NCBI GenBank assembly: GCA_964016885.1 | Contig: CAXHJY010000214.1 | Coordinates: 52,823-116,822 of the forward strand | From: Eledone cirrhosa | Lineage: Eukaryota | DNA length: 64,000 nt | Direction of reading: 5' to 3' | In this document: piece by piece, positions 3,732 to 47,076 of the stretch | Numbering within the stretch: position 1 is the stretch's first letter | Layout of the letters: each line of letters opens with the position of its first letter | The notes under the pieces: generated by a model | Told to the model about the DNA's origin: nothing | Database searches by the model: none | Seen by the model: only the letters and a program-made list of their open reading frames with translations | Position numbers and translations under genes: made by a program

Positions 3732-3796
3732 ATATTTTATTATACAAATTTCAAAGGTACAATGGTGTTTAAGTACGTTTTCATCAGATAAAATAT
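3732..3796 (-). ncRNA. Minimal type-I hammerhead ribozyme motif in a PLE pLTR-like remnant
   Basis: Minus strand: atattttat-CTGATGA-aaacgtac..gtaccttt-GAAA-tttgtaTA-ataaaatat. Perfect 9-bp stem I, intact core, AUA cleavage triplet. Confidence 0.7.
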
Positions 3797-4751
3797 GAGA
3801 GATTGGATATGCGACATACGGCTACAGTTTTGATTATTCAATTCCAGTAGAGGCAGTGATTTATTTCACCAACCCCCAACGTTTTTATACCACAAATAAT
3901 ATGATAAACTTAGAGAAGAAGAGAACGTAGGTATAGAAGGGGAGTTGAGATGGAAGATGCGAAGAAAAAGAAGGGAAATAAATAAATAAATAAAAGAAGA
4001 GAAGATGCAGAGAGAGAAGAAGGGTAATAAAAAACATATATAAACTTAATCATCATTTTTGTCTATTTTTCCAAGACATTTTTGAAACAGACTTTGGACA
4101 GCCAGATGCCTTTCTTGACACCAAACCATGCTTTATTTTAAGTATGTTATATGCCACTCTTGTTCATAAAACCACTATGCTGCAGCACTCATTGTTTTAT
4201 GGGGGAACAGTCACTGTTTTTATAGATGATGTTAATGCGATGTTGGCAGTACTGGAGCATACACACATACAACAAGCTTCCTTACAGTTTCTCTCTACAA
4301 AATTCACTGATAATGCATTGGACAACCTGGAACTATAGTAGAAGACACTTGTATAAGATGCCATGCAGTGGGACTCATCTCAAAACCATGTAATTCCAGA
4401 GCAAAATTATTTCTTTGGCATGGGTTAGACAAACTTTCATGGTTCAAGACCAGACATGTAAGATTGACCCATCTTGCTCATAAGTTACATTTTTGGTATA
4501 GTTTCTATGGCAGGATACTCTTCATAATGCCAACCAGCTTACTGAATGTACTAGGTGTGTTTTTTGATGAATTAATTTAATTCTTTATTTCTATTCATCA
4601 TAAATAACTATATGGATTTAACTGCAAAAGCATGCAGAAAGAATGATGTTAAAATTAATGGATTTTGCTTCCCTTCAAAAGTATGGTACAAGAAGTGCAT
4701 ATTATGAAACAAACATAAAACCATTTTAAAAAACAATAAAATGTTACCAAC

Positions 4752-4857
4752 TTTTAAAATAGCGCAAAGTTCTGCTAGTGTTTCCAAGTGATTAATATGA
4801 ATTATCAGCGGACGGAATACATCATAAAGGTTGGTACATAATTTCTCAAGCATTTGG
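4752..4857 (-). CDS. COG3: COG3 exon 11
   Basis: tag|[35 protein letters not shown]|gttggt; 106 nt; the phase-0 donor is required by the next exon. Confidence 0.93.
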
Positions 4858-6342
4858 CTATAAAAGATTAAAGGGAAAACTTAGAAAAACTTCATATCAA
4901 ATATTTCATTTACATTTCAAGAAATATATATTTTTCTTAACATTTAACATCAGGTAAACTCTGATTGAAAAGTCTGACAAAGGCATCCCAGCCAGGACCA
5001 CCTCATCTTTCTCTCAAGCAGTGGATATCTATGTCTACATTATTTAATACTCTCCTCCGTTTTCAAGACAGGTCTAATTTGAGGGAGATTTGGCTGCTAT
5101 TTCTAATGGGTCAAGAACCTAAATGGAGGCTTTCTCTTCATTTGCATATCTATGCAATAAAATATCACTTAAACATATGCGTCAAATGAATTTTCAGCTT
5201 AAGCCTAGTTTTTATTTGGAATTAGCTGTGGTACTCAGCATTGCCTGGGTGCTGAATGCATAACTCCACATTGAAACACATAATTCACATATATAAATCT
5301 ATAAACATATATTAACACACAAATGCATATGAATTTGTACACACATGTGCACATACAGACACTAACACACTATGCAAATATATAAATTCATGCACACATC
5401 TACACACATACAAATACATAGAGAGGATTGAGAAAAATTATGTGTGTGTGTATGTAAGAGAGAGATAGAGACAGACAGATATACAAACAGAAGGAAATAG
5501 AACAAGTCAGAGAGATGAAGGAGTTGGAGTGAATTAAGGAGAGATTGAACAACAAATAAAAAATACAGAGGTGGATATTACAAAATGACAATGTATTTTA
5601 GGAAGCTTTCTAGGCCTCACCCTCACTTCACCAATATTCTTGTGTTTATTCTTTTTCCCACTTCCTCTACATTAGAACTTTCTACCTTTCTCAATTTCCT
5701 TTCTTAACTTCTTGTTTAAATCCAGTGCAAACTCAGACACAGAAATTTTTGTTCATGGATTATCTAAGATATCTTGATCTCCACATCAAATTTTGTAAGG
5801 ATTCATTGAGAAATGACAACTTTGTTTCAAGACAAACAGACACATTTTTGTACATATCCTTATTTAGGATAATGTGGCAAAATATTAACATTCAAGCATT
5901 GTTCTTATTTTGCTTTGGTTTGGCTTGTTTGCACTGTAAAGACTTTCTTAAAAACTATTATTCTATTTATTTATTTTTGTTTTAAAAATGACATCAATTA
6001 GTTTAATCCATTAAAAATAATTGCCTGTTAAAAATAGATGCAATAATCATCTCCCATATTCATAACTTTGTCATACAGTCATATGGCAGAACTTGTATTA
6101 TATGTTAACCACCATAAGATCCCCAAACTTCAGTTTTCACAACAATTTTACAATAAAGATGAGAAGGACATAACTAAATATTTAATTGAATGCACCTATC
6201 AATCAGCTAGCTACCTTTGTCATAAGAGAAATCAAACAGAACTTACTGTGGTTAACTATTTATAAGAAAAGTCACATTATTACAAGTTTACAATCACATT
6301 ATTACAATGCCAATTGAAACTATAAAATGCTAGTTTACTTAC

Positions 6343-6434
6343 TCAAGTAATGGTGATGGTTTTGAGAAAAAATTGAAATATAGTTGGCTTTCATCTTCAC
6401 ATACATGCACCATAAAAACACAACCACTGCGCAT
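6343..6434 (-). CDS. COG3: COG3 exon 10
   Basis: cag|MRSGCVFMVHVCEDESQLYFNFFSKPSPLL(D)|gtaagt; 92 nt. Confidence 0.95.
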
Positions 6435-8015
6435 CTGTTAGAGATAAACAGAAGCAAAGTCAATTATGAAGAACTCTTTATTTCAAAAACAAAATCTAAT
6501 GATATGTACTGAGAAAAATAGGAAGTTTACAAAAAGCATCATAGCAAACATAGAATTATCAGTTGAAAAAAGAAAAGCTCAGATTAACAGGTACATTTTA
6601 AAAAAACTACAACAAAAGAAAATGCTAAAAGAATTCATTGACATTCCACTCTTTATTAATGACAATCTACCTGAGTCACTATCTGTAGATAGCACTTGGC
6701 TGCTCACCTCAAAGTCATCTGGTTGTTGTTCTTTATCCTCAAGATAGCCTTGAAATAGAAATATGCAGCAGTGATCATCACTTTTTCTTTATTTAACCAT
6801 AGTGTATCAGGACCACATTATCTTATGCATCTACTTCAGATGGTTGAGAATGATATAAAGAAAATTTGGCTATTTATAGTAGGTGGAACAATTTAATAGA
6901 TGTAACTAATGCAGTCAAACCCAGTCAGCTAAGTTCAGAAATATGATGGATATTGACTTTCACCAATGATCGTATCTATGTATGCATAGTAGTAGAATCA
7001 TAGGTATAAAAACTGTCATACATATATAATCCCATATGGGTCCACCTGACACTAGAATGAAGCAGTGAGCATGTGAAAGATATGAAGAGAGGAGCTAATA
7101 CAATTAAGAATACAAGATAGAAAGAAGAACAGAAATGCCATCAAGAGAAAAGAAACAATTGTGCTTTGTAACTATTTTATTTATTTCTTCTCTTTTTAAG
7201 GAATTCATTATATTTATCTGTTATACATCAGTCATAATGTACTGATGTTCAAAGAACATGCATTGATCTTACAACTTTAGTAATAATCACATTCCACCAT
7301 CATTTGCATATCCATATACATATTCAATCATAGATTGCTCCTCACTCTGTCATATAGTCACACAGACGTTTCTCATTAGTGGTTTTCCACTGCTTCTCCA
7401 AGTAGGCAAGAGTTTTAAAGCAGGGTGAAATGGGGTTTGCAATCATCATCATTTAACATCCACTTTCCCAGCCAGCAAGGGTTAGATGAGTTGGCACAGA
7501 CAAAGTCAGTATTGAAGCTGAGCTCCTGACCTCTTGGATGGGCTGGGAGCTTGCATCTCACTTACATACATTCCCACACTTTACAGGCGAGGGCCCACAT
7601 CTCGCTCACATACATTCCAGCACTCTGCCAAGTGAAATTTATCATGGCACCAGCACTAGGGGTGGTCACCATATCTATTACACAGCTGAAGAGTCCTCTA
7701 GACATGTTGGCAGATTTTATATGGCTGGATGCACTTTCTATAACCAACCATTTTATAGACTGTAATCAGTGTGTATAAGTGAAATGAAACAGCTACAAAC
7801 AGGAATCACAACAAGGTTGTAGACTCAACTCACTGGAAACTACCCAAGAACACCTTTCTAGAACAATCATAAGAAGAACGGAGTCTCAAAATAGAAATAT
7901 TATAGTAAAGGATCAACTAACTTGATATTAGAATTATAGTGATACAGAGTATCTTATTGAATGAAATATTAACAGCTAAGCTGCAATGTTAGACAAGAAA
8001 GACAACCATACATAC

Positions 8016-8142
8016 CAAAGCGCAATGGTCTCGTTGATATCGTGCAGCAAGATCAGCAATTGTAGATTCGACACTGGGCCCAAGAAGTAATTCTCGCTGG
8101 GAGAAATAGCACTGGTGACAATCATTTAATATCTGGGCATAC
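8016..8142 (-). CDS. COG3: COG3 exon 9
   Basis: tag|YAQILNDCHQCYFSQRELLLGPSVESTIADLAARYQRDHCAL|gtatgt; 127 nt. Confidence 0.95.
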
Positions 8143-8971
8143 CTACAACATAATGTTATGTCATAGTAATATTGATATAGTTTCATAAATAAAAAATATC
8201 TCTTAGTAATCATGCAATCATTATGACAGAAAGGAATTATCATACATGTTGATAAATGCTATCAAGAATCAGTACATAAAAAAGGGTTGAGTTTCACCAC
8301 AATCATCAAGCAAATCCCTTATTTAGATAAGTAAAACTAAAGAAATTTGAGACAGATGAGTTAAGATAATACCAAAATATACTATGACATCTTAAAACAA
8401 GCACCACTAAGGTGGAAAAGAATGCTATTGAAAATCTGAAAAACAATATCACAATACTTCTAGCAGATAAAACTAATTTCTCAAAATACCAGCTAAATCT
8501 CCCTAAAACCAGATCCTACTGACAGGGCCAGATTTAATGGGGAGCAAAGGAGACAATTGTCCCTGACCCCCTGCTGTGGGGGGTTCCACTAGCAACGGCT
8601 ATAGTAATTTATTTGTGCCCTCAGCTGGGCTTTTTTTTTTAGGATGGTTAGAATTTTTGAATTTAATACCTGTATGTATAACTTGCACCAAGTTAACTTT
8701 GATATGTTTGCTGTGTATCCTAATTTTTTGTGTATGAGGGGCTCCCCCAAGGTTTAAATCCAACCAGCCTACTGTCTGAAAAAGGGAAGGATACATTAGA
8801 TAATGTAATGTGTAAGATATATTATGCCATAAAAATGATGGGGTCACCAGGATTGGAACACCATTTGATCATATGTCTGCTCAATCTAGGCTGAACTGAG
8901 GCTCAACAATAACTTTCTTGAACTGAAACACTTCAGAGAAGATATTCTAAAAGAAGTTTTTTCATCTAAAC

Positions 8972-9928
8972 CACAGGTTCTCAACCCATTTAGGCCAAAC
9001 GCCCCCTTTTGTCCCTCGAAATCACGACCCCCCCCCCCCCACCCCCACCCCCCAATTTTTCTATTTTTCAATATACTACTGATTTTTATATCAGTAGATT
9101 ACTAAAAAATTGATTAACAATATTCCAAAGATGTGTGTATTATCTGATTATGTGTTGTATGTGGTCCTAGATGTGTGTATTATCTGATTATGTGTTGTAT
9201 GTGGTCCTAGATGTGTGTATTATCTGATTATGTGCTGTATGTGGTCCTAGATGTGTGTATTATCTGATTATGTGTTGTATGTGGTCCTAGATGTGTGTAT
9301 TATCTGATTATGTGTTGTATGTGGTCCTAGATGTGTGTATTATCTGATTATGTGTTGTATGTGGTCCTAGATGTGTGTATTACCTGTTTATATGTTGTAT
9401 GTGGTCCTAGATGTGTGTGCTACTCGCTTCTGTTTTTTCTTTTCTTTTTTTTTTATTTGTAATATTATTTATACAATAAGGAATAAAATAGATCTACATA
9501 GTGTTAACTCGTTATGGCTGAGTCAATAATTTCAGACATGAAATACATTGTTATCGGTGAAGGAAAGATAAGATTCTAACTGGCTGCGCGCAAAGTGTCT
9601 TTGACCCAGTTGACTGGGTTTTTCCATTTTTAGGATCTCAATTACCGGTTAACGTCTCAATTACCGGACACGCCTGCACACCTGCTCACAGCTGCGGTCA
9701 GACTATAGTTATGCTGTCTGCAAGCTCATTCAAATGCATTCACACTGGCTGTCTCAAAGACATACAAATATGGCTTATAAAACTTACCAAAATAAAGAGC
9801 CTTCCAGCGCCCCCTAACCCCCTCCCCCAGCTCCAAACGCCCCCCTAACGCGACCCTGCTCCCAAACGCCCCCCTGGAGTTCCAAAACGACCCCCGGAGG
9901 TGCATATGCCCCTCGTTGAGAACCTTTG
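8972..9928. mobile_element. Non-autonomous hAT (Charlie-like) element, 957 bp
   Basis: 14-bp TIRs CACAGGTTCTCAAC / GTTGAGAACCTTTG (1 mismatch); exact 8-bp TSD ATCTAAAC at 8964-8971 and 9929-9936; subterminal AACGCCCC motifs. Confidence 0.9.
9131..9419. repeat. 40-bp minisatellite, about 7.2 copies, inside the hAT element
   Basis: Unit ATGTGTGTATTATCTGATTATGTGTTGTATGTGGTCCTAG in exact 40-nt register. Confidence 0.95.
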
Positions 9929-11960: not shown

Positions 11961-14900
11961 TTTTTATTTTCTTTCATTATTGTTTCTGAGATATATGCCG
12001 AGTGTCTTCCTGACACCTTGGGCAAATAAATTCACAGTGTGCATTGGTAAACCAGTTAATACAGCACATTGATTATAATTAAAAAAAAAAAAAACACATG
12101 TGCATATGCATATGTAAATACAAGGAGGGATATCAATCTTACAGAGATAGTGCTCTTCTCAATATGTGTGCAGTACCAGTCAAAACACTTTTTTGCACCT
12201 CGTGCAGAGAGGGTAAACCAGGAGTCATTCTCAAATATTGTTCTGTTCCTTTCTTGATCATTCCCAGTCCTCCCACAATCACTGGTATTGTAACAACCTT
12301 GAGGTGCCACATTTTCTCAATTTCAATAAGCAGATCTTTATATTTTCGTAGCTTGTCAAATTCTTTTGCCGTGATATTGTGATCACATGGGATGCTCATA
12401 TCTATCAATAAACAGGCCTTGTTATGTTGATATTTTACAATAATGTCAGGTCTATTTGCTTTTATGGTCCTGTCAGTATGTACAGGAAAGTCCCAGAGAA
12501 TTGTTACTTTTTCTCCTTCAGTTACAGCTCAGGGTCATGATTGTACTACTTGTCTTCAGCTTTGATATTGTAATGCCGACATATTACCCAGTGTAGATAT
12601 TGGCCAACTCTGTCATGTCTATATTTGTATTCTACTGGTGCTAAAACTTTACATCCAGAGACTAAGTGATCCACTGTTTCAACCTCAGCATCGCAGAATC
12701 GGCACTTTGGGTTTATTCCGTTTCTCATCACATTGGCCTGGTAATTACGAGTCAATAAGCTTTGATCTTGGGCAGCTAAGATGAAGCCTTCACTCTCCAC
12801 CTTTAGCCCTGAACTACTGATGGGTGTGCTTTTGGTCAACATCAGCTTGTTTGCTACGGGCCACATATTTGCCATGCAGAGGTTTCTGTTCCCAATTCGA
12901 TGCTAATTATCCTTGCCCTTTTGCTTTTGCCTGTGATTTTATGTGCCTAGCAGCATCAGTTGCAACAGTCTCTTTAGTCTGTCCAGCCTGGGTATCAAGC
13001 ATGAGATCAATAGCATATTTTTTGCTCTCCTTCAAGATAGAATGAAGCTTCTTACTTCTTACTTCTCTCATGCTTTTCAACAAGTTTCAGCATACAGTCG
13101 TTAGTTGTTTCAAGGTATTTGGCCAGTCAAATGATGGTGGTCTTGTAAACAAGTTCAAATTGGATCAGGCCACAGCCTCCTTGAGTTCTAGGAAGGTAAA
13201 GACGATCCATATCTGCTTTTGGGTGGTGCATCCTATTACAGGTCAGTAGCTGACGGACTTTGGTGTCAATTCTTTTGATTTCACTCATATTCCAGGTCAA
13301 CACACCGCAGCTCTAAGTGACAACTGGGACTGCCAAAGAATTTATGGCTGGCACCTTGTTATGAGCGTTTAGTTCTGATCTCAGAACTGCACGTACTCTC
13401 CTGTAACATTCTTTCCTCATCCTCTCTTTCATACTTGCATGCTGTATATCAGAACCCTCATTAATCCCTAAGTATTTATAGGTTTGTTCCTGCTCAAGTT
13501 CCTTTATGATTGTTTCAGCATCCAATTCAACTGAGTCTGAGTTAACAATATTCCCCTTCTTGAAAGTGGCTTTTGCACTCTTGTCAAGTCCAAACTCCAT
13601 CCTGATGTCATCGCTAAACGTTTTTACTGTCCGCAAAAGGCCTCCAGTTCGTCATTATCTTTGCAATATAGCTTAAAATCATCCATATAAAACAGGTGGC
13701 TTATTTTTTTGTTGTCAATTCTATAACCGTACCCTGTCCTATTAAGTTCGGATGTAAGGGGTATTAAAGCTATGCAGAAAAGCAAGGGTGAAAGTGAGTC
13801 ACCCTGGAATATACCACAGTTGATGTTTATATTCCTAGAGCACAGTACCCCAGTGGAATGAGACAATTGGAGATTTGTGTTCCATAATGACATATTGTGT
13901 TTCAGGAAGTTTGAGATCACAGGTGAGCTTTTGATGATGTCCAGTGATTTCAGAATCCATGAGTGTGGTATGCTGTCAAAGGCTTTTTTATAATCGATCC
14001 ATGCAGAACTGAGATTTCTGTGTTTATTATGATAGTTCTCAAGGATCATACGATTAATCAAAAGTTGATATTTGCAACCATATGAACCTCATCGGCACCC
14101 CTTTTGTTCAATGGGGAAAAGATTGTTCTCCTCCAAAAACACGTATGCTTTTTCCATGAGAATAGAGGTTAATAGTTTATAAGTGGTGGACAAGCAGGTT
14201 ATGGGCCGATAGATTTTTGGATCTTTGGTTTCGTTGTTCTTTGGTAGAAAGTAGGTAATGCCACTTGCTATCCAATCAGGTGTATTTTTTGGATCTTTCA
14301 TAATTTCATTAAACAGCTTGACCAATATATTGTGAGTGTACGGGAGTGAGGAAAGCCAGAAATTTGGCACCCTGTCTCTATCAGATTTCCATTTATGAGA
14401 TTTATTGAGTGCTGTCCTTAAGTCTGCTATAGAGATGTCTTCTCACGCCTGTTCTTCTAAATTTGTGTAGGATTTTTCCAGGCGACTAATCCAATCTACA
14501 TTAGCATTATATGTTTTCTCATCACTCCAAATCTTACTCCAGAAGTTTTCAACTTCTTCTAATTATTTTTTCTTCCCTACTTCTCTATAAAATGACTCGG
14601 CATTGGATGAAAGCAACTTATTTTGCCCGTAGAAGTTGTTTCGCTTCTCGAATCTACGAATTCGTTGGGCTTTTACTTGGACTTTTTGTTTCAGAGATTC
14701 TTTTGTTGAAACTATTGCTTCTCTAGAAGACAGTCCATATTTTCTCTTTAGCTTTCTTACCTTCTTGGATCTTATATCATTTCCAGCGGCTAACTCACTC
14801 AATAAAGATATTTCTCCTCTCATTACGACAATTTCCTTTTCGATTCTACTCCTCCAAATTGGTTTACCTCGAAGGTTCAACTTTTTTTGTTTTTTTGGTG

Positions 14901-15204: not shown

Positions 15205-15291
15205 GTGCCAAAAGCAGAAACAATTATTATTATAATAGTAGTATGTAATTTAAAAGACAATATATCATTAATAAAAAGTTAATATGTTCAC

Positions 15292-19734: not shown

Positions 19735-19910
19735 ATATATATATATATATATAAAATGAAGTATTTCCGTAGGAAAGGTAAAGGAAAAGAGAGTGCTCTA
19801 TGTAGGCTACAGAGCTTTTTAGTTATGTAATAAACAACATAAGATAATTATTTCATTTACCAGTGGTTTCTTGAAGACAGATATTTATGTCTGTCTTCAT
19901 TCATCAGGAA

Positions 19911-20038
<128 letters not shown>

Positions 20039-20186
20039 ATATATATATATATACATATATATGTAGGAGGTGAGTTTTATTGTAGTACAATAAAGCAATG
20101 CAGATATCGGATAAGAAGCACTCTACAGTTTGTAGGACTGGAGTATACATAATATAAGATCAAAAGATGGTTAAAGGAGTTCCATG

Positions 20187-20257
20187 TATTTTATTATGCG
20201 CATTTCAAAAACAAACATCATCATGCAATAATATTTGTGTTTTCATCAGATAAAACA
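20187..20257 (-). ncRNA. Minimal type-I hammerhead ribozyme motif (PLE inverted pLTR)
   Basis: Minus strand: tgttttat-CTGATGA-aaacacaaatattatt(gcat)gatgatgtttgttttt-GAAA-TGCGCATA-ataaaata. 8-bp stem I, long stem II, palindromic TGCGCA stem III. Confidence 0.82.
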
Positions 20258-20353
20258 GGAGAACATGATATGAAGGCTAAAAAACACTTGTGGATAGTGC
20301 AGTTTTAAATCAACATATGAAAAGTGGTTTTAGATTGATGTGTGATATTGGGA

Positions 20354-20762
20354 AAAATATTTTATTTAGAGAGGGGGGGGGGAAGGATGAAAAAGGGGAG
20401 GAGATGAGAGGGAGAGATGGGTGATAGAGAGAAAGAGATAGTTTTTATAACTGAGAGAAGATATATTGTTTTACATAGAGAGGTTGAAAACCGTTGGAAG
20501 ATAATGTATAAATTAAAAGAATTTGAAAATTAACGAAGGGAAGATATGTACGAGGAAAAAATATTTTATTTAGGGAGGGGGGGTGGAAAGGATGAAAAAA
20601 GGGGGAGGAGATGAGAGTGAAGGTGGAGAGGGAGAGATGGGTGATAGAGAGAAAGAGATAGTTTTTATAACTGAGAAAAGATATATTGTTTTACATAGAG
20701 AGGTTGAGAACCGTTGGAAGATAATGTATAAATTAAAAGAATTTGAAAATTAACGAAGGGAA
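20354..20762. repeat. About 190-240-bp direct duplication in the PLE inverted region
   Basis: GAGGGAGAGATGGGTGATAG...TTTGAAAATTAACGAAGGGAA occurs at about 20408-20541 and 20628-20762. Confidence 0.85.
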
Positions 20763-20988
20763 TTTATGTATGAAGATAGAGAGAAAAAATAATAATTGTG
20801 GATGAATATTCTAACGTCAAAAAAAGTGTATGTTGATAAGTATTGTGGCAATTTCAAAATTAACGAAGAGAAAAAAAAATTATTAAGGTTTGTGTGTAGA
20901 AGGATTTGAGAAAAATAATGTGAAGTTAAAGTTTGTATATTGAAGGAATTGATAATATGTGCGAATAAAGAGTTAATATGTATTAAGA

Positions 20989-22740
20989 ATGAGTTCGTTG
21001 AACACAATTTCTAACCTAAATTCCTCAAAAAATGTTTTAGTCCACTCTGACAAAACCAATAACTTATATGGTATTTCCAAGGATAATTATAACAACCTTA
21101 TCCTAAAGGAACTTAGGAAAAAGTATCGTAAAACCAACCATGAAAATTTAGAATACATAAACCTTGAAGCCTCTGAGATTATGTCAAAACTTGGCATTGA
21201 AAAAAAGACCGAACCATTCCTCCCAAGAACTCCGAGGATAAATCTCAAGGATCACAAAAACAATTTTCGCACCGAACTACCTGTTAGATTAATCGCCCCC
21301 TCTAAATCTGATCTGGGGGTTGTTAGTAAAGCCATCTTGGATAGAATTATCCCACAGGTTAGTTCTAATTGCTCTTCTTTGAACCTAAATTTATGGTTTG
21401 GTACTTCTGAGGTGATTGGCTGGTTCAACAAATTGGATAATAAAAACAAACTAAAATTTATTCAATTTGATATTGCCAGCTACTATTCCTCCATTTCGCC
21501 TTCACTTCTCAATAATGCTCTATCTTTCGCACTTAAATATTCTGACATCACCACAGATAAACTTCACATCATCCTCACCGCACGTAAAACCATCCTAGAG
21601 TTCAACAACGAATATTGGACCAGAGCCGATACCTCTAACAACTTCGACATCACAATGGGAGCATCTGATTCATCCCAATTGACTGATTTAATTGGTATCT
21701 TCATTTTGAACTCTTTGAGTCGGAAAATTCCTCAACTTCGCGGTGGAATTTATCGTGACGATGGACTCTTTACTATCCTAAATTGCAATATAGTTAACCT
21801 TAATATTATTAAGAACAATATACGTAATCTCTTTAACCAACATAACCTAAAAATTGAATTTGATAATAGTATCAAACTAGCTAATTTCTTGGATGTATCT
21901 CTTAATCTTAACACTGGCCTATATTACCCTTACCATAAAAACAATGAGAACCTAAATTATGTTAACTTTAAATCTAACCATCCTACCAATATCAAGAATG
22001 CTATAGTTAGTAATATTGGAAAAAGAATATTTAACATATCTTCTAATAAAAACATATTTGATGCTAACGCCAATTACTATAATAATGCACTTTCTAAAGC
22101 CGGCTATCCAGATAAAATCAAATATAGTAAAGAAACAAATTCTAGAAAAACTTACAGTAGAATAATTAATCATGATCATTCCAATAATTTTAATAAAAGA
22201 CCTAGATACAAAAACATAATCTGGTATAATGCTCCTTTTTCCATCTCTATTAATAACAATATTCCTAAATTATTTTTTAGTGCCTTAAATAAATGCTTCC
22301 CTCCCTCACATATCTATAGTAAAATATTTAACAAACACACCATCAAATTTTCTTATTCTACATCCTCCAATATTTCCAACATCATCTCTAAACACAACAA
22401 TAAAATACTAAATCTCTTCCTTCCAACATTGAATTTCATAATAACAGTAATAGTACTCCCGACGTCATTGTAAACCCTAGGCTAACTTCTGTAAACCCAA
22501 ATACAACGTCAAACACAACTTCGCTAAATGTCCATAATCCAACTCTAAATCAAGAAACTATTATTCCTATTATTCCTATCGCAAACAACTTCTCCAATCC
22601 AATTCCTTCTATAGATAACACTAGGTCACTCATTAATAATCTCTCTAATTGCAACTGCCGCATTAAAAATAAATGTCCTCTCAACAACCATTGTCTCGAT
22701 AAAAACTTAATTTATGAATGTAAAGTTATAACTAGCACCA
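20989..22740 (+). mobile_element. Penelope-like element 1: RT ORF (5' truncated, frameshifted) plus start of the CxC/GIY-YIG region
   Basis: ORF 20989-22473 with QFDIASYY, ITMGASDS and YRDDGL RT motifs and the PLE thumb (YVNFKSNHP). After a frameshift, CNCRIKNKCPLNNHCLDKNLIYECKV at about 22650-22730. Confidence 0.9.
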
Positions 22741-25411
22741 ATAGCAAAAACATTCTTGACAGGGTGATACAGCAAATTAAGAACTTGGATTGTGTATCTA
22801 ACCTGAGCTTGTGGAAGGGAACTGGAGAGGTTGTTGAGTGGTTTAGGCAAATTAAATATAACAATAATAATAGGTTTATTCAACTTGATATAGCTAACTA
22901 TTATTCTTCTATTACCCCTAGTCTACTAAATAAGGCACTAAATTACGCATTCAAACATACGGACCTAACTAGCAAAGAAATGCATATTATATTATCGGCT
23001 AGGAAAACTTTGATAGAATTTAATGACAAATTATGGACCAGAGCAGATAGAGATAGCAATTTTGACATAACTATGGGATCTTCCGACTCAGCTCAGGTTA
23101 CTGACCTTGTGGGCTTATTTTTAATCAATTCGCTGCATAGGAAAATACCTGGTACTACCGGAGGTTTATATAGGGATGACATGCTTTTACTTATTAATAA
23201 TAATAACCCTGAACTAAATAGAAAATGTAAACAAATTACAAAATTTTTTAATTACTTTAACCTTAAAATAGAAATTGAGAACAACCATAGAATAGTCAAT
23301 TTCCTAGATATAACATTAAATCTCAACACATGTCTCCACTATCCTTTTCACAAGTTGAATGAAAACTTAAACTATGTCAACTTTAACTCTAACCACCCCA
23401 GATCTGTCATAAACACTATAGTAAACTCAGTCCAAAAACGTATCTCTAGGATCTCGTCGAATAGAAAGATTTTTGACGAAAAGGCCCAGTACTATAATGA
23501 TGCACTAGCTAGGGCAGGGTATGCTGATAAGATTGTGTACATAGATAATGATAGACAAACTAAACAAAGTAACAACTTTTTTAATTACGGCAACAACATT
23601 AACAACTATAATAGAAAGCATTACAATAATTCCAAAGGACAAAAAAGAAATAGAACCAGGAACATAATTTGGTTTGCCCCCCCTTTCTCACTAAACATTA
23701 AAACCCACATCGCTAAATTATTTTTCAAAGCTCTTGATAATCGCTTCCCTAGAACACATAGGTATCACTCAATCTTCAATAGGCATACAATTAAATTAAC
23801 CTACTCATCCACCAAAAATTTAGCACAAAATATTAATAGAATAAATAATAGGAACTTAAAACCTACTGATAATAGCATAAATAATATACAAGTTAACAAA
23901 TGTAACTGTAGAGATAGATCTAAATGTCCGTTAAATAACAACTGCTTAGTTAAAAATATAGTATACAATTGTAATGTTAATACTGACTCTAATTCTTTTA
24001 ACTACGTCGGTTCCACATCGACGGAATTTAAACTTCGCTATAATAACCACAAGAATTCTTTCACAGATCCAAATAAAAAATTTTCAACGGCACTATCAGG
24101 CGTACTCTGGCAACTTAAGCTAGATAACGTTAGATATTCGACGGCTTGGAATATAGTCTCAAGAGGGATTCCTTTTAATTCATCCTCTGAGACATGTGAC
24201 CTCTGCGCAGAGGAGATATTCTTTATACTAAAATCTAAAAATTCCCTTAACCTACGGACAAATTTATTCAGTTGTTGCAAACATAGATTAAACTCAACGT
24301 TTAAATATAAATTTAAATTTAAAATGTAGTATATTTAGTTTGATTTATATTTATATGAGAACTAGCCGATAAATATTTTTTGATTCCTAAATCTTTGATT
24401 CCCTCTTTTTACTCTTTTTTTATTGTTTATTTTATTTTATTTATTTTTATTTTTATTTTTATTTTTATCTAAACACTCCTCATGAAAAATTAAGCTACCC
24501 TAAAAGCCGATGCTCCAAATTTTTTGAATTAACCTTACACTAGATAAACTTCTATATTAAATATAGGAACATATGTAGACATAATTGGACATCATAATCT
24601 TTTTGAGATGTTCTTTGCTAGATGTGATTTGATAGATAATTTTTGGCTTTGTCTTGTAATGAACTTGGCAATATATTGTCAATTAACTTTGAAGGGTTGT
24701 TCTTTGTGGTTTATTTTTATTTTTATTTTTATTTTTATTTTTATTCTTTTAGTATTGTAGTATTCTATAATATTTTTTATTTTTTATTTTTAATATTATT
24801 TTTAATATTTTTAATATCTTTAATATGTAAATTTTTAATACGTAATATTTTTTAATACGTAGTATTTTTAATATGCAATATTTTTATTATGTAATATTCT
24901 TTCGTAATATTTTTTTAGTTTTCTATTCTATATTTTTACTTATTATTATTATTATTGTTATCTTTTTATTTTTAGTTTTGTTTATAATATAATATATATT
25001 TTTGATTAGTATATTGAAATCTGCTCTCTATTTCTGCTTGATAGATAATCTTGTAGAGTAATCGCAAGAATAATAATACGCTCAAATTTTTATACCACAT
25101 TGAGAATGTTTTCCGGTAACCTAGAGTTTGCAGAGTGAATCAGTTGGATTCACATTGATGTTTGTAGCTGTCACATAAACATATGAATTTTTTAAAACTA
25201 AACATAAGATAATGAATTTTCACACATTATGGGTACTTGTTTCATTCAGGAATACTGATATTTACAATATAGTGTAAGTTTTATAAATACTAATACATTA
25301 AAACATAGGGTTTTCTACGCCTCGAATATGTCTGGCTATTTTTAAATTTTTTTTCTCTCTCTATATCTCTCTATATCTCTCTATATATCTCCCTTACATT
25401 AATACTTGAGC

Positions 25412-25442
<31 letters not shown>

Positions 25443-25916
25443 ATGTATCATTGATACACTTACTCAAAATGACCTCCCACTACCTAATTTTCTATATATA
25501 TATATGTATCTATCTCTATTTCCTCTCTCTATATATATATATATATCTCTTTCTGTTTCTTTACATGAAGCTCTTCGCTTTATCTATTTTTCCATCTCTC
25601 TATTTTGTTCCATGCATTTCTTCTTTTTCTCTTTTCTTCTTTTTCTTCCTTTTCTTCGTTTTGTCTTTCTTTCTTTTTTCTCTCTTTTTTCTCTCTTTTT
25701 TTTCTCTCTTTCTTTCTCTCTGTATTTTCACTGCTAGCGTAAACCTCTTCAAATGAAGTCGATGTTTATCACGGTATGTCGAATATATTTATCTATAAAA
25801 CTGTTTATATTGTATTTTGTCTGATGAAGGCATAGCATATTGTTAATATGATATCCCCGAAATATATATAATGAAATAAATATGGTTTTATAAATATAGT
25901 TTTCCATTTATTTAAT

Positions 25917-25920
<4 letters not shown>
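22741..25920 (+). mobile_element. Penelope-like element 2: RT + C-terminal GIY-YIG, long 3' region with hammerhead
   Basis: Open frame 22741-24329: YRDDML RT, CNCRDRSKCP linker, IVYNC..YVGSTSTEFKLRYNNH GIY-YIG, CDLC..CCKH. Ends at a (TA)n tract. Confidence 0.93.
25813..25878 (+). ncRNA. Minimal type-I hammerhead ribozyme motif (PLE 3' pLTR)
   Basis: tattttgt-CTGATGA-aggcatagcatatt(gtt)aatatgatatcccc-GAAA-TATATATA-atgaaata; 1.5 kb downstream of the PLE ORF on the same strand. Confidence 0.75.
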
Positions 25921-25949
<29 letters not shown>

Positions 25950-25951
<2 letters not shown>

Positions 25952-29210: not shown

Positions 29211-30030
29211 CTGAAATGAAAATAAAAATAAAGGATATAAATAAATTGCAAGAATTTTAGTGCTGTAAGGAAATACAAAATTTATTAGTATGAATAGACA
29301 ATTCTTCTTTCACACACACATACATCATCATTTCATTTCATTTTACGTCCGCTATTCCCTGCTTGCAAGGGAACTGAAATAAATACATATTTTTACTTTA
29401 TATATATACACACACATATGTGTATATATATAATCCTCATGACTCAACACTTACACTCCCTCCACATGACTGAATTCCTACTTCTTTGTCCAACCCCACC
29501 AATATGGAAAGCCATGTTCATCTGAAATGTCTAGCCTCTGAAGATGACAACCAGTCTAACCCATATAAGCATGAAAAATAGATGTAAAACTGTGATGATG
29601 ATGCATTTTAATATCCGTTTTCCCTGCTAGCAAGGGTTGAATGGGCCTACATAGACCAAGTCAGTGGTCCTTCTACTGCAGATACTATCTGCTGGTCACA
29701 AATCCTAGCCAAAAGATGTGGATTTGAAAGCAGAAAGCATAAAGTCACATCAGATGCCCTAAAACATCTCGTCCAACTCTTTAACAATTCTGTCAATTCA
29801 CCACCCTTGGACTAGTATTAAATTTTTCAACCCTGACTGAATGAAAGGCAAAGTAGATATCAGCAATATTTTAACACAGAGTGCAGAGAGCCAGTACAAA
29901 TGCTAAGACATTTAAACTGACACTCCAAAGACTGCCAATTCACTGCTTTCAAGTAAAACTCAGAAAGAAAATTAATAAACAAACATGATAAGAAACAAAA
30001 GCTCAATGCAAATATAAGTATTAAATTTAC

Positions 30031-30196
30031 CTGTTCTGCAAGCAAATGTTCACAGGCATCATGAAGAGCATTAGTTTTAAAAGATACTAAGTTATACTGG
30101 TGTTGTAGATTATTAAGGTAATCAAGGGCATCAGTGACTTCTTGTAATACATCACAGCACTGCTTTCTGTAGTTCTCAAGTTCTGTTATATAATCC
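30031..30196 (-). CDS. COG3: COG3 exon 4
   Basis: cag|DYITELENYRKQCCDVLQEVTDALDYLNNLQHQYNLVSFKTNALHDACEHLLAEQ|gtaaat; 166 nt; Sec34 domain. Confidence 0.95.
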
Positions 30197-35560: not shown

Positions 35561-36197
35561 GCACATACACATACGCACATGCATATACACATATGCATCA
35601 GCGTATGGAAAACGATTCTAGTAAGAAAAAAATTTACTAACTACTTGAAGCTGCAATCATTCTTACTACAAGATGAGATATTGTGTGTCAAGAGCAGTAG
35701 TGATGTGTTGTTTTGCCAATTCATCTAAAGTGGTGGTGTAGGTGACAACAAAAAGCACCCAGTCCACACTGTAAAGTGGTCATGTTGGAAATACGGTAAA
35801 AAGGCTCCCAGTCCACACTGTAAATGTGGTTGGTGTTAGGAAGGGCATCCAGCCATAGAAAACCTGTCAGAAACAGTTCTGTATGACCAAGACATAGTAC
35901 CTGACCAATCTTGCCTCAAGTGGGACAAACCCGCCCAAACCATGCTAGTGTGGAAGGTGGACATTAAACGATAATGATGATGATGATATATAGCCATATG
36001 TAGTTTACAGCTGAAAGAAAAAGTACTCAATACAAAGTAGAGTTTAAATATTCATTTTATTAAGGTTAAATAGTGAGTCTTGTTACTCTGGATTTTCGTC
36101 TGCTTCTCATAAGGTCATCAGACAAGATGATCCAGTGATAAACAGGCAAATCTCCAGAGTAACAAGACTCACTATTTAGCCTTGATAAAATGAATAT

Positions 36198-38255: not shown

Positions 38256-38559
38256 TGGGGGATATATATATATATATATATATTTACTAAAAATTAATAA
38301 TAAAGTCATTATAAATCTATGCCATGTCAAATAAGAAACCCAACCCTTATAACATTAAAGCTATAGTAAATCCAACACCAACACATCCACCTAAAGCAAA
38401 ACAAAAACCACAATAACAGTCTGCAAATATCAGAATAGTGTACAAAAAGTGTTGAGTAAACAGGTATGGTAGAGTACTCTCTCTAGGTTCACTCTCCTCC
38501 TGCTCAGAGGTTGGCTGTGCCTTTTATGCAGTCTGTGCCAATAAAATTAGTAGCAGTAA

Positions 38560-42186: not shown

Positions 42187-43054
42187 GGCACTACAACGCT
42201 ATTAGCTGTCAGTCCAAGCAGCCGATGGAAACAGACGAAGGTGACGTCACTCGTCAAACATCGTTTATTTCCGTATTACTACCACACGTAAGTGGAGTTT
42301 TCACGCGTTTTCACAAATAGAAAACAAGTCATGGTTATAAAGCATATCGATGTAAGTGGAGTTACTTAAATGAAAATATAGGTAGCCCTTAAAAGGGCCA
42401 AATTAGAAAACAAATTTAAGTTAATTAGAAAACAAGACATGGTTATCAAATAAATTTGATTTATTCATTTATATTTTCATTATTCACCAACCTTATTCAA
42501 AAGCATGTTTAGAAACATTTTTTACACCAACTTTATTCAAATGCATGGAATCAGATGACGGATATGTTCTAATAACTTTTGGAAAATTTCTCCTTTAAAT
42601 TCATACCGCCACATGAATTCAATGAGATGGGTTTGAAGCAAATTTCTGGCTGTCCCGTTTTCCCTTTTATTCCTATTTTTTACGTGTTTCCACAAGCATT
42701 CTATGTGATTCGTTGTGGCAAATGTTACTGGATCAACAAAATTGATCGAATGGTTCACCGTCAAATGTTGATAGCCTAGCTGATCGATCGTATTATAGGA
42801 ACGCCATAGATCAGATATTATGGTTGTCCCTGGCAATATACGATCCTGTATAATGGTTAAAAGTGTCTCCGCTGTCCTGTCTTCTACTGCTACTAAAATA
42901 CATCTTCTGGTACCTCTTTCCAAAGCACCAAAAACCCACTGTGTTTTCACAGAATGGCCACGATGGTATTTCCTTCTCACGAATGCGCTTTCATCAATCT
43001 CGACAATTCGGTTTGGCCCGCCAAGCTTAATGTTTTGTGCCACATAGTACTCTG
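42187..43054 (-). mobile_element. Merlin (IS1595/ISXO2-like) DNA transposon: 3' half of transposase with terminal repeat
   Basis: ORF 42537-43043: LGGPNRIVEIDES, RKYHRG, WVFG, TTIISDLWRSY, HLTVNHS, TNHIECLW, the DDE signature of Merlin/IS1595. Terminal repeat GGCACTACAACGCTATTAGCTGTCAG starts at 42187. Confidence 0.92.
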
Positions 43055-43267
43055 GGCACTACAAAGCTATTAGCTGTCAGCCGAAGCAGCCGATGAAAGC
43101 AAAACATCGTTTATTTCCGTATTACTACCACGCGTAAGTGGAGTTACTTAAATGAACAATTTTTTTTTCACGCGTTTTTTTTGTTTTTTTTTTATTAAAG
43201 CATATAGATGTAAGTGGAGTTACTTAAATGAAAATATAGGTGGCCCTTAAAAGGGCCAAATTAGAAT
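43055..43267. mobile_element. Second Merlin terminal sequence, truncating the transposase
   Basis: GGCACTACAAAGCTATTAGCTGTCAG...CCCTTAAAAGGGCCAAATTAGAA is a direct-orientation copy of 42187-42408. Confidence 0.85.
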
Positions 43268-43325
43268 ATACCGCTGCGTTTTTACAGTTTTACTAGTTAC
43301 ACATACACACATATATATATATACA

Positions 43326-43404: not shown

Positions 43405-43406
43405 TT

Positions 43407-43452
<46 letters not shown>

Positions 43453-43879
43453 GGGAAGGGAGACATTTTTGGATGCTATACCTAACATAATAAAATCCAA
43501 AATACACCCCTAACATTTGTCGAAATATCAATCACGAGAGTAGATAAATAAATATATAAATACATAAATAAGAAATGATAGAAAAGGAAAAGAAAATCCC
43601 TACATTATGTAATATTCCCAGTCACGCCTAAATTTCAAAACCGGGAGGGAAAAGTCCGAGAGTTAAAATCCCAAATGATGGTACCTCAAATACTAGTGTA
43701 TCCCTTCGCATTACAGTTTAAAGCAATACATATGATCGCTTTGATGACTCTTATTCGTTTCTAAGTGTCTCGTTTTTTTCTCTTCTTTCTATATGTCAAA
43801 ATCTTTCCCTCTGTCTATCTCTTTCCCTCTCTGTCTATATTTTGCCATAAAAACGATAATGATAATCAATTCAATTAAG

Positions 43880-43955
<76 letters not shown>

Positions 43956-44019
43956 AAGATGAATATAAAATGAAAGTGCTTTTTTTTAAAAAGGAACTTA
44001 TTAGGTATTGACATATGTT

Positions 44020-45592
44020 TCTATAACAGACGGAATACCTATGTATCGCTGCTTGCGTAATAATGTTAGCAAGTATTCGATAGCAAATGTATAATCAGTT
44101 GTCACTTCTTCAGAGATTTTGGATAAATTGGATAAAATCAGAAAAATTGAAGTATTTATATTAGTTGTAATAGAGGAAGAAGAGAAGGGAGAGTATATGA
44201 CAGATGGTAATTCAATTTACAGCTAAACAAGTATATAAAGGGTTTCTAATGAGAATACAATTAGTAAATGGTTGATTTTATCTAAATAAGAATTTTTGGG
44301 AGTGCCTATTTTAATCTATACTTGACCAATTGAACAGTGGACAGGGCTGGTCATTTGGTGTAGTAGTATTAATTATAAAGTGTCAATTGAGGAAGGGGGA
44401 GATTTCGACTGCTACTGAATAACATTAATGCTAGTAGCCAGCTGGTATATGCATTAGGGAATTGAATTAAGAAATCAGAAATCTCATTTTATCTATAGCA
44501 GTTTATATTAAATGGTAAATAATAGAAGAGTTGATAGAATTAAGACTAATAGAGAATGTTAATATGTATTTTGACAATCAAACGGAGATGGAGACAGGCG
44601 TTCAATCCTGGTAGTATTTGTAATATGAAAATGTGGATTTTAAGCGATGGTTACAGTATAACGATCGCTCTATTCTGTTATTTAATAAAATGTTTTGGGA
44701 TTTCCTAATACAAAATAATTCCATATTACATAATTTACAAAATTCCTGTCCGTGGGAATATTGGGGGGGGGGGGGGCAGCCGCTATTATATCCCATTTTA
44801 GGTTAAATTGTTGGTTATTTTCACGCAGCTGCCAAGCCTTGTCTGCGAGTGTTGTTACATAACGCTGGTTTTCATGTTTTATCGAGTAGCGATGTCTATA
44901 AAGGCGTGATTTGAAGGAGGTGGCTGTAGATCCCACATAGTACCACTTCTGTCTATCCGATTCGATAGTACATTTGTATATGATGTTGCGTTCAAGACAC
45001 TGAGTGTTCAACGGACACATTCCTGGTTGGACACAGTTACAGTTATAATTTTGCATTGTTGTATTGTCATGGATGGGTTGATGAGGTTGCTTGGGTAGGA
45101 CAGGATGTTGTTTGTTGTTTTGTGATGTTATAGCTAATGTTTTACGTGTATTGTTATGTGTTGGAAGGCGTTTATACAACCGTTTTGCGTTAAGCTTTTT
45201 TATATGTTGTTCAATATTAGGGGCGGTTGGATAGGAAAGTCGAATAGTGTTAGGGTTTAAGATTTTATTATATTTATGTGATGTTGGAAAGTGTTTTTTA
45301 ACTAATCGAAAGAATTGTGAGGGTAGATTGGTTTTAATAGAGTTGTTATAGACCGGGTTGTACCAAATATACTCCTTACATCGCCTTCTGTTTGGTGGTG
45401 TGCGACTATTATTGTGTCTATTGCGGTAGTGTATGTATGGTGGTGATTCTGTGCTATTTCTACTCCTATGGGATTTATTTTGGGTGTTTTGGTGATCTTC
45501 GACTATATACTCTATATTATCTAGGTGTCCGGCTTTCCTAAGTGCATCATCATAACATTCGGCATGTTCTTTGAAGGTTTGTTGGTTGGACG
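44020..45592 (-). mobile_element. Penelope-like element 3' fragment (thumb + GIY-YIG)
   Basis: ORF 44682-45596: YDDALRKAG, IWYNP, CNCVQPGMCPLNTQC, YYVGSTATSFKSRLYRH; frameshift near the end. The 3' boundary is approximate. Confidence 0.85.
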
Positions 45593-46196
45593 ACATTCCC
45601 CCTTTTTTTAGCCGTTAAAAGAAATATAGATTTTTTTTTTTTTTTTTTTTGCGATTTATTTGCCACTGGGGCATATATTTCTTTATTTGCCCCTTTTTTG
45701 TTTGTTTGTTTTTTGGCGATTTATTAGCCTTTTGGGGTCACACACACCCCCGTAGAAACTGCGACCTTTCTGCCAGGGAGTACAGAGAGAGGGGGGTGCT
45801 CCCTTCTCTTACCTGTACAAGCCGATATAGAGAGATGGCCCACTTACACGGGCCATTTATTGCTACTTTCACCCGAAAAAGGCACTCAGTCCCAGCCAAT
45901 TCCATGAAAGATGGGTGAAAGTAGCAATAATGGCCCGTGTAAGTGGGCCATCTCTCTATATCGGCTTGTACAGGTAAGAGAAGGGAGCACCCCCCTCTCT
46001 GTGCTCCCTGGCAGAAAGGTCGCACACTTTCTACGGGGGCGTGTGTGACCCCAAAAGGCTAATAAATCGCAAAAAAACAAACAAACAAACAAAAAAGGGG
46101 CAAATAAAGAAATCTATGCCCCAGTTGCAAATAAATTGCAAAAAAATAAAAATAAATAAATCTATATTTCTTTTAACGGCTAAAGAAAGGGAATGT
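45593..46196. repeat. Foldback / long inverted repeat, about 280-bp arms and 38-nt spacer
   Basis: 45593-45874 is the near-perfect reverse complement of 45913-46196; the ORF track shows the same peptide on both strands. Confidence 0.93.
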
Positions 46197-46513
46197 AAAT
46201 TTGTTGGAATAGCCTCATACATTGAAGTAAGCAGCAACTGCAGCAAGTAAGCGGCATTTAGACAGCTAAAATTGGATATCGCCTATTTCTTAATTGAATT
46301 GATTATCATTATCGTTTTTATGGCAAAAGATAGACAGAGAGGGAATTATGTCTCATATAAAATAATACAACTGGCTATCCGCAAAATACGTATAGTTAGC
46401 ACCCCAAACGTATAATTAGGATTATACTAAGGTATATCCTAATGTTTGTTGAGTGAGACGGAGGCCGGTCGGAGTATTGCTTAAAGCTTTCTCTGTTAAT
46501 GTATTAAATATTA

Positions 46514-46690
46514 GGCACTACAACGCTATTAGCTGTCAGTCGAAAGCAGCAGATCAAAGCAAAACATCGTTTATTTCCGTATTACTACCACGCGTAAGTG
46601 GAGTTACTTGGTGGTAGCAATACGGAAATAAACGATGATGAATGACGTCACCTTCGCCTGCTTTCATCGGCTGCGTTCACGACTGACAGC
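46514..46690. mobile_element. Merlin-derived palindromic MITE-like remnant
   Basis: Third copy of the terminus (46514-46608) followed directly by an inverted copy (GTGGTAGCAATACGGAAATAAACGATG...CTGACAGCTA) lacking the outermost bases. Confidence 0.8.
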
Positions 46691-46699
46691 TATATATCA

Positions 46700-46862
46700 C
46701 GTGAACACAATCACATTATTCTTTCAAAAGGAAAAGTTTGGCGCCATTTTTTTCCAGGGAGTAAACAAACGCAGGAGAAAAGAATAAACAGCATTCTTTC
46801 ATCGTTACAACTTATATACACATTAATGATGACAAATTGTAAAAGCAAAAGATAAGAAAACG
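46700..46862 (+). other. Probable non-coding first exon of a divergent plus-strand gene
   Basis: CACGTG at about 46698, GGCGCCATTTT (YY1-type) at 46740-46750, strong donor ACG|GTAAGT at 46862/46863. No downstream exon found in the window. Confidence 0.45.
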
Positions 46863-47010
46863 GTAAGTAATATCAAATAATTATTAAAGTGTTGAGATTA
46901 AAAACGTTCAGTCTGACGGATGAGTTATGTATATGTTACAGGAGTACATTACACGAATAATTAAGGTTCATACATACATATATATATGTGTGTATGTATG
47001 TATATATATG

Positions 47011-47076
47011 TATTTTATCTTATGAAAGCGCACCATAATTTGCCTTGGTGGCCCTTGAAATATGTATACTAAAATA
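47011..47076 (+). ncRNA. Degenerate hammerhead motif (core CTTATGA) in a solo pLTR fragment
   Basis: tattttat-CTTATGA-aagcgcacca..tggtggccctt-GAAA-tatgtata-ctaaaata, followed by the same aaataaatatggttttataaatatagttt tail as the 25813 copy. G5 is mutated, so probably inactive. Confidence 0.55.

What the first reader, a model, noticed from the sequence alone, without database searches (positions are those of the whole stretch)
3732..47076. Family of four hidden minimal hammerhead ribozymes marking Penelope-like pLTRs
Seen: four loci (3732-, 20187-, 25813+, 47011+) share the architecture T(A/G)TTTT(A/G)T - CTGATGA - hairpin - GAAA - 8 nt ending ATA - complement of stem I. Their stem II sequences differ but still pair, which indicates conserved structure rather than simple repeat identity. 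Three share a downstream AT-rich tail. Known: PLEs carry minimal type-I hammerheads with tiny, often palindromic stem III that self-cleave as dimers. Inference: several PLE subfamilies have seeded self-cleaving motifs through this locus, including solo copies without an ORF.
Basis: partly seen in the sequence, partly recalled or inferred. Interest (0 to 1): 0.75.

Follow-up and report, generated by a model that had tools for sequence, protein, structure and literature searches.

The report
Hammerheads of Hydra-clade Penelope retrotransposons
The four motifs are real hammerhead-shaped RNAs at the ends of a known kind of animal jumping gene, present in tens of thousands of copies in this genome; one of the four has a broken core, and self-cutting is predicted but untested.

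Summary
Real, but a known kind. Three loci (3733-, 20187-, 25813+) have an exact type-I hammerhead core; 47011+ carries G5>U and a stem I mismatch. The 3.0-Gb genome holds 64,803 exact pattern matches; the reversed control has 0. Stem II covaries across 11 types around an invariant C·Y mismatch, and stem III is an 8-nt palindrome. The motifs end Hydra-clade Penelope-like elements (RT, CxCx5C, C-terminal GIY-YIG, (TA)n target), a clade already published with hammerheads, including in octopus (PMC8557442). 20187- is the inverted 3' arm of one family and 25813+ the 3' end of another, joined in one composite insert. 3733- and 47011+ are 5'-truncated ends. Half of sampled copies form outward-facing pairs, and 19 of 24 pairs have one long and one short end (p=0.003). 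Insert ends lie 45-140 nt beyond the cut site, so integration likely uses uncleaved RNA, as shown in vitro for Poseidon (PMC11167929). Junctions at the cut site are only weakly enriched (12 vs 6 and 3). Cleavage was not tested. This scan noted Hydra hammerheads and twin hairpins before on other DNA of this genome.

The parts
3678..4036 (-). 5'-truncated 3' end of a Hydra-type PLE (family C), short-ended, in a COG3 intron in sense
   Evidence: matches 11 other genomic copies at 85-94%; GIY-YIG remnant 1.3 kb upstream of the same motif in 1 of those 11 (L063); exons
3733..3795 (-). Hammerhead L1: exact core, stem III palindrome damaged by one private change
19790..19915 (-). Missed fifth hammerhead (core from 19907) with long tail, a separate repeat family; 9-nt near-palindromic stem III, stem I with an internal loop
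   Evidence: (40 loci scored, 17 extra inverted partner arms)
19915..20060 (.). (TA)n-rich target at the left end of the composite insert
20061..21001 (-). Inverted 5'-truncated 3' arm of family A, long-ended (tail 20061-20144)
20187..20257 (-). Hammerhead L2, identical to the commonest family A form; predicted cut between 20195 and 20194; strongest stem III self-duplex (-10.5 kcal/mol)
21000..22742 (+). Family A ORF fragment (DKT, RT core, CxCx5C linker), 5'-truncated, one frameshift near 22410-22470, endonuclease replaced by family B
22743..24329 (+). Family B ORF, 5'-truncated: RT, CxCx5C, GIY-YIG-type YVGST, CxxC, CxH; 52% identical to family A; joined to A without clear microhomology
24330..25920 (+). 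Family B 3' UTR / pLTR, short-ended, followed by (TA)n at 25921-25950
25813..25878 (+). Hammerhead L3, identical to the commonest family B form
36078..36127 (-). Missed degenerate hammerhead of another family: exact core, perfect 6-bp stem I, imperfect stem III
   Evidence: one related locus, L122
44002..44118 (-). Missed atypical hammerhead: CUGAAGA, 83-nt rod-like stem II, palindromic stem III, GUC site, weak stem I with a competing 8-bp helix; 3' of the third Hydra ORF
   Evidence: three further copies in L137, L138
44620..45614 (-). Third Hydra-type ORF fragment (RT thumb, CxCx5C, GIY-YIG), 33% identical to family B
47009..47120 (+). ~110-nt 3' end of family D between (TA)-rich runs; hammerhead L4 (47011-47076) with G5>U; lies inside an ~880-bp unit that has a second genomic copy

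Best explanation
The four motifs are type-I hammerhead sequences at the 3' ends (pseudo-LTRs) of four different Hydra-clade Penelope-like retrotransposon families that inserted into (TA)n; three have an intact core and would likely self-cleave only weakly, as dimers or with the element's protein, while the fourth is predicted to be dead. Shown: the link to the ORFs, covariation, copy number, and two classes of insert end 45-55 and 130-140 nt past the cut site. Also shown: inverted pairs mostly carry one end of each class, and a CTCC...GAG hairpin lies just past each end class. Inferred mechanism: a read-through transcript from tandem copies carries the hammerhead and the start of the next unit. 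The element's protein cuts both strands of a (TA)n target and starts reverse transcription inside the uncleaved RNA at two sites beside the two hairpins, likely one site per strand. The two cDNAs truncate and join head to head. The hammerhead is therefore copied as a passenger of every 3' end. It is kept by selection in the source elements, most likely for occasional processing of tandem transcripts or as an RNP fold, but it does not set the ends of most inserts.
For: Exact cores vs shuffles. 64,803 matches vs control 0. Stem II pairs 73 of 77 cells across 11 types; shuffles mean 62.2, max 70 of 5000; slid registers 27-46; both-side changes at pairs 2, 3, 5, 6. 143 of 155 hits carry one of three fully self-complementary stem III octamers. 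ORF linkage. Hydra motifs DKT, CxCx5C, CxxC, CxH (definitions). 48 of 98 sampled motifs lie in 24 divergent same-family pairs, 19 of 24 long+short, p=0.003. Hairpins at +52/+142 (A) and +59/+150 (B) past the cut. Of 12 other family A copies reaching the ORF start region, 4 run seamlessly through an upstream hammerhead and 1 starts at the cut site. Poseidon in vitro extends both strands, starts at two internal sites, does not need HHR cleavage, and its HHR is protein-assisted (PMC11167929).
Against: No cleavage or expression data. Only L2 folds into the hammerhead dimer as the minimum-energy state; L1, L3 and L4 do not, and stem I duplexes are weak (-1.5 to -3.1 kcal/mol). The canonical G10.1-C11.1 pair is absent (A-U, G-U or A·C). 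Rfam finds no match. The covariation shuffle ignores relatedness among the 11 types. No tree was built. An ORF link for families C and D rests on one locus each. A small excess of 5' junctions at the cut site (12 vs 6 and 3 raw) argues that some templates are cleaved. One strand per start site is inferred from end asymmetry alone.
Confidence: 0.8

Rival explanations
1. Hammerhead cleavage is an obligatory step: it cuts tandem transcripts to unit length, the unit circularises, and the circle is the template for integration (model proposed in PMC4209133).
For: Seamless tandem pLTRs in 4 of 12 family A copies and ends lying past the cut site fit a religated circle. The core is invariant across families 52% alike in protein. 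Junction excess at the cut site: 12 vs 6 and 3 raw, one-sided p=0.02; 10 vs 5 after removing apparent deletions, p=0.009. One near-full-length copy starts there (L072).
Against: The same ends follow from uncleaved read-through RNA. The junction counts are tiny against tens of thousands of copies, and 6 of the 10 sit after ATAT, where microhomology could explain them (4 vs 5 without them, p=0.35). G5-mutant cores occur in both arms of at least 3 pairs among the 100 rows listed, plus L107. That suggests dead-core RNA can be copied, or that arms are gene-converted. HHR mutants did not affect Poseidon insertion in vitro.
Confidence: 0.15
2. The motif is a conserved RNP-binding fold that only resembles a hammerhead and no longer cuts.
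For: Weak AU-only stem I, an invariant C·Y mismatch at pair 4 of stem II (88 of 90 sampled copies pyrimidine-pyrimidine), no G10.1-C11.1 pair, and an AUA site. PMC4209133 itself allows functions other than cleavage.
Against: All catalytic positions and the self-complementarity of stem III are kept while its sequence changes. Related PLE hammerheads cut weakly in vitro.
Confidence: 0.1
3. The solo copies are a non-autonomous family (retrozyme or MITE-like) that spreads as a unit.
For: Many ~100-300-bp inverted pairs without an ORF; L4 lies in an ~880-bp unit with a second copy.
Against: The head-to-head junction differs from pair to pair (core-to-core 88-5005 nt in 24 pairs). Arms run continuously into ORF-bearing copies. 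No tandem arrays of 150-450-bp units were seen.
Confidence: 0.05

Closest known systems
Hydra clade of C-terminal EN+ PLEs, e.g. Hydra-1_Obim, Penelope-13_HM (Craig et al. 2021, PMC8557442; seen: abstract, passages, section 11, supplement part 2 and search hits)
   Same: RT-linker-GIY-YIG order, DKT, CxCx5C, CxxC/CxH, (TA)n target, 3' type-I hammerhead with palindromic stem III, inverted 5'-truncated arm, tail at one end
   Different: Units are about 3.8-3.9 kb (cut site to cut site in L161, L167) versus <3 kb. RWK reads RWR, RWI or RWT. The site is AUA rather than the GUH of the listed Hydra hammerheads. Stem II is long with a fixed C·Y mismatch. Copy number is in the tens of thousands across at least 7 families, whereas Hydra-1_Obim was curated with the note that 4 copies end at one site. 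Hammerhead sequences differ from Hydra-1_Obim (compared by eye).
PLE min-HHR / type-I HHR (Cervera and de la Pena 2014, PMC4209133; seen: parts 1-2 of 4)
   Same: Type-I topology in pLTRs, long helix II, palindromic helix III, many solo copies, close opposite-strand pairs, many covarying families per genome
   Different: 8-nt stem III rather than none; no G10.1-C11.1 pair; 64,803 pattern matches versus about 2,000-9,000 per genome reported there
Poseidon_Ac internal initiation (Frangieh et al. 2024, PMC11167929; seen: parts 1-2 of 4)
   Same: Two insert ends downstream of the hammerhead bounding a tail; AT-rich target; both strands extended; uncleaved RNA as template
   Different: Different clade; tail of about 85-90 nt rather than 30-40; start sites lie in the 5' UTR next to twin CTCC...GAG hairpins rather than in an AC-rich stem-loop inside the ORF
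Non-LTR retrozymes (PMC7229834, passages; 10.64898/2026.07.22.740005, part 1 of 5)
   Same: Type-I hammerheads at very high copy number (up to 120,000 in axolotl)
   Different: No tandem arrays of short units here; copies are truncated ends of ORF-bearing elements

Membership tests
Type-I hammerhead | Core CUGANGA ... GAAA ... NUH | tested here: met
   3 of 4 loci exact; 47011 has G5>U
Type-I hammerhead | Helices I and II with covariation | tested here: met
   73 of 77 cells paired, both-side changes at 4 pairs, shuffles max 70; relatedness not controlled
Type-I hammerhead | Helix III short and palindromic (dimer-competent) | tested here: met
   143 of 155 hits carry three 8/8 self-complementary octamers; L1 copy damaged
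Type-I hammerhead | Match to an Rfam hammerhead model | tested here: not met
   none at E<=10 for L2, L5, L3; L1 and L4 only, where 154 of 304 rows were not shown
Type-I hammerhead | Self-cleavage | not testable with these tools
   no assay; indirect junction test inconclusive
min-HHR (Cervera 2014) | No helix III; G10.1-C11.1 pair | tested here: not met
   8-nt stem III; first stem II pair A-U 6, G-U 4, A·C 1 of 11
Hydra-clade PLE | RT followed by C-terminal GIY-YIG | tested here: met
   YRDD then YVGST/YFGST, read by motif; Pfam gave no hit on either ORF
Hydra-clade PLE | DKT motif, CxCx5C linker, CxxC and CxH | tested here: met
Hydra-clade PLE | RWK motif | tested here: inconclusive
   RWR in B, RWI/RWT in A
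Hydra-clade PLE | CCHH motif absent from the endonuclease | tested here: inconclusive
   by inspection only CxxC and CxH are seen in P0002; no alignment to CCHH-bearing clades
Hydra-clade PLE | (TA)n insertion and 3' hammerhead | tested here: met
Hydra-clade PLE | Length generally <3 kb | tested here: not met
   3.76 kb (A, L167) and 3.91 kb (B, L161) unit spacing; descriptive in the paper, not strict
Hydra-clade PLE | RT groups with Hydra in a tree | not tested
   reference proteins seen only as paper text and compared by eye
Naiad PLE | N-terminal endonuclease, no canonical hammerhead | tested here: not met
   endonuclease is C-terminal; definition
Non-LTR retrozyme | Tandem 150-450-bp units each with a hammerhead | tested here: not met
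   no such array in the window or among 98 sampled motifs

The most novel reading that the evidence does not exclude
Each inverted insert is made by one enzyme dimer that primes the two strands of a (TA)n break at two different hairpin-marked sites on same-family RNAs, one long and one short. The palindromic hammerhead stem III helps pair those RNAs, and the rare 5' junctions exactly at the AUA site are the first genomic footprint of PLE hammerhead cleavage in vivo.
Probability: 0.2. Interest if true: 0.65.

Novelty: new member of a known kind. Interest (0 to 1): 0.33.

Why it matters
Hammerheads in PLE pLTRs, in the Hydra clade and in octopus are in print, so the core finding is not new. What this genome adds is scale and a test bed. 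It has at least 64,803 young copies from many families with natural covariation, 993 natural G5 mutants, and a strong long/short asymmetry of paired ends. The role of PLE hammerheads is called unclear in PMC8557442; a full junction map here plus one cleavage assay could settle it. Three sense copies sit in introns of the housekeeping gene COG3, which suggests that single copies do little harm (inference).

Tried and rejected
Naiad: my first guess from recall, rejected because the endonuclease is C-terminal. A dead-core subfamily behind L4: G5 variants total 993 vs 64,803 (1.5%) and are spread over all families with A, C and T, so this is ordinary drift. Pile-up of 5' ends at the cut site in family A: 12 vs 6 (-8) and 3 (+12), inconclusive; only the 12 were inspected in context. 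Rfam gave no hammerhead match. Pfam gave nothing on the PLE ORFs. RNA evidence: no RNA holder listed, so no reads were laid. Locus 34238(-) was dropped as chance-like. A deletion as the origin of the 44002-44118 motif was rejected because three other copies share the layout. Microhomology at the A/B junction: none beyond 0-1 nt. Whether B replaced A's end by a template jump or by insertion with target deletion was not resolved. Literature searches: searches found no paper on hammerhead counts or end asymmetry in a cephalopod genome. PMC13282606 (passages only) mentions no hammerhead or ribozyme. The library lacks most subscription papers. bioRxiv supplements and most of the 59 parts of the PMC8557442 supplement were not read.
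Full report
Observation. The four stretches were read directly. A structure scan required core, stem II closure, stem III and at least 7 of 8 stem I pairs. It returned exactly 3733-3795(-), 20187-20257(-) and 25813-25878(+) with an exact core, and added 47011-47076(+) and one chance-like hit at one mismatch. Forty block shuffles gave 0.0 and 0.3 loci. The fourth locus has G5>U and a mismatch at the pair next to the cut, so the statement that all four carry CTGATGA is wrong. Rfam does not see these motifs (one search showed 150 of 304 rows).

What they belong to. The ORFs at 20977-22473 and 22404-24329 have no Pfam hit. They read as two PLE reverse transcriptases 52% alike; a third fragment lies at 44682-45614(-). 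The order RT, CxCx5C, YVGST, CxxC, CxH and the DKT motif match the Hydra clade as defined in PMC8557442 section 11. Its supplement lists Hydra-1_Obim from Octopus bimaculoides with a hammerhead and a (TA)n target. That the host is an octopus is my inference from this likeness, not a test. In 11 of 11 other family A copies the ORF continues past window 22742 into sequence that matches 21001-20144 inverted, and 8 of 11 reach the L2 hammerhead inside the fetched stretch. So L2 is the inverted 3' arm of family A. Family B copies continue upstream of 22743 and end in the L3 hammerhead. The window therefore holds one composite: (TA)n, inverted A arm, A ORF fragment, B fragment, (TA)n. L1 is a ~360-nt truncated end; 1 of 11 relatives has an endonuclease remnant 1.3 kb upstream. 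L4 is a ~110-nt end inside an ~880-bp unit with a second copy (5 of 15 related loci compared). In 1 of 15 loci a family D arm abuts an ORF 70% alike to B.

Genome scale. A tight pattern finds 64,803 matches in 2,996 Mb; the reversed pattern finds 0. The pattern misses the families at 19907, 36121 and 44111, so this is a floor. G5 variants number 993 (1.5%) and are spread across families.

Structure. Among 155 hits in all loci held at that point (L001-L160 plus the window, enriched for families A and B by my searches), 11 stem II types had at least 2 hits. Anchored on the core, pairs 1-3 and 5-7 form in 10, 11, 11, 11, 11 and 11 of 11 types, with A-U/G-C or U-A/C-G swaps at pairs 2, 3, 5 and 6. 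Pair 4 forms in 0 of 11. Over pairs 1-3 and 5-8 the total is 73 of 77, against a shuffle mean of 62.2 (max 70 in 5000) and 27-46 when slid. The shuffle does not correct for relatedness. In the less biased C1 sample, pair 4 is pyrimidine-pyrimidine in 88 of 90. Stem III changes sequence but stays self-complementary (143 of 155). Against robust cutting: stem I duplexes are only -1.5 to -3.1 kcal/mol, and only L2 gives the hammerhead dimer as its minimum-energy fold.

Insert anatomy. I fetched stretches around the pattern hits in the first 10.7 Mb of C1 (30 loci of 3 kb plus 40 of 10 kb). Of 98 motifs, 48 lie in 24 outward-facing same-family pairs within 6 kb, one further pair was split by my family rule, and 7 same-strand neighbours were counted. 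3' ends fall into a short class (45-55 nt past the cut) and a long class (130-140 nt). Of the 24 pairs, 19 have one of each, 3 are short/short and 2 long/long (p=0.003 against independent pairing). The tail classifier misses long tails of family E, which has no counted pair. The tail is the start of the next unit: in tandem copies it runs on into the 5' UTR and ORF. Following a lead from earlier notes e1-8673755 and e1-9560118, I found two similar hairpins past the cut in A (+52, +142) and B (+59, +150), each a few bases beyond one end class. Their predicted energies are weak (-2.9 to -5.6 kcal/mol). This fits Poseidon's two internal start sites and two-strand extension and the published remark that the tail is often at one end only.

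Does cleavage shape inserts? All 3' ends lie beyond the cut. Of 12 other family A copies with the 5' ORF region (L069-L080; L068 is a second view of L041), 4 pass seamlessly through an upstream hammerhead, 1 starts at the cut site, 1 starts 15 nt before it and 6 are truncated further in. Genome-wide, junction-type patterns gave 12 hits at the cut, 6 at -8 and 3 at +12. Two of the 12 are deletions, and 6 of the other 10 follow ATAT. The one-sided p is 0.02 raw, 0.009 filtered and 0.35 without the ATAT cases. This is suggestive at most. No RNA run was listed.

Context. COG3 exons on the minus strand at about 30030-30190, 8013-8144, 4752-4862 and 1146-1370 place L1, L2 and the 19907 motif in its introns in sense. 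Their stem III octamers differ, so they are unlikely to dimerise with each other (inference from sequence).

Verdict. The copy number, the fixed C·Y mismatch and the quantified end asymmetry are details I did not find in print, but each extends published features. Interest 0.33.

Noticed in passing
window 44002-44118 (-); L137, L138: Hydra-family hammerhead with an 83-88-nt rod stem II, GUC site and a weak stem I; an 8-nt stretch inside stem II pairs perfectly with the bases after the cut, a possible off-state switch
   Followed up: partly
window 19790-19915 (-): Fifth hammerhead family; 17 of 40 scored loci have an inverted partner arm, nearly all ending about 30-40 nt past the cut while the query arm runs about 100 nt; no ORF link found in 11 loci
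   Followed up: partly
window 36078-36127 (-): Degenerate hammerhead resembling the listed Hydra-2_aMil layout; related inverted pair in L122
   Followed up: partly
window 22742/22743: In-frame fusion of family A linker to family B RT without microhomology; L098 likewise shows a family D arm beside a family B ORF
   Followed up: partly
G000:C1:133388805/133394948, 167266784/167267136, 283495601/283495793; L107: Both arms of an inverted pair share the same G5 change: dead-core template or gene conversion
   Followed up: no
window 1146-30190 (-): Host gene COG3 spans the left half of the window
   Followed up: partly
window 45593-46196; 46514-47389; 43823-43884/46284-46345: MITE-like inverted-repeat element, an ~880-bp duplicated unit carrying L4, and a 62-nt inverted pair
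   Followed up: no
window 12139-14442 (-), 36557-38293 (-), 47475-48707 (-), 42537-43058 (-): LINE fragments (RVT_1, zf-RVT, one with a PHD finger) and an ISXO2-like transposase fragment
   Followed up: no
window 48600-64000: About 15 kb of (TA/TATG)n microsatellite with extreme GC skew; source of the spurious miRNA hits
   Followed up: no
window 43218-43262 (-): Histone 3' UTR stem-loop match at Rfam's gathering score (34 bits), not beside an identified histone ORF
   Followed up: no
L126, L128: Further Hydra-type families with other hammerhead forms, one with G8>A
   Followed up: no
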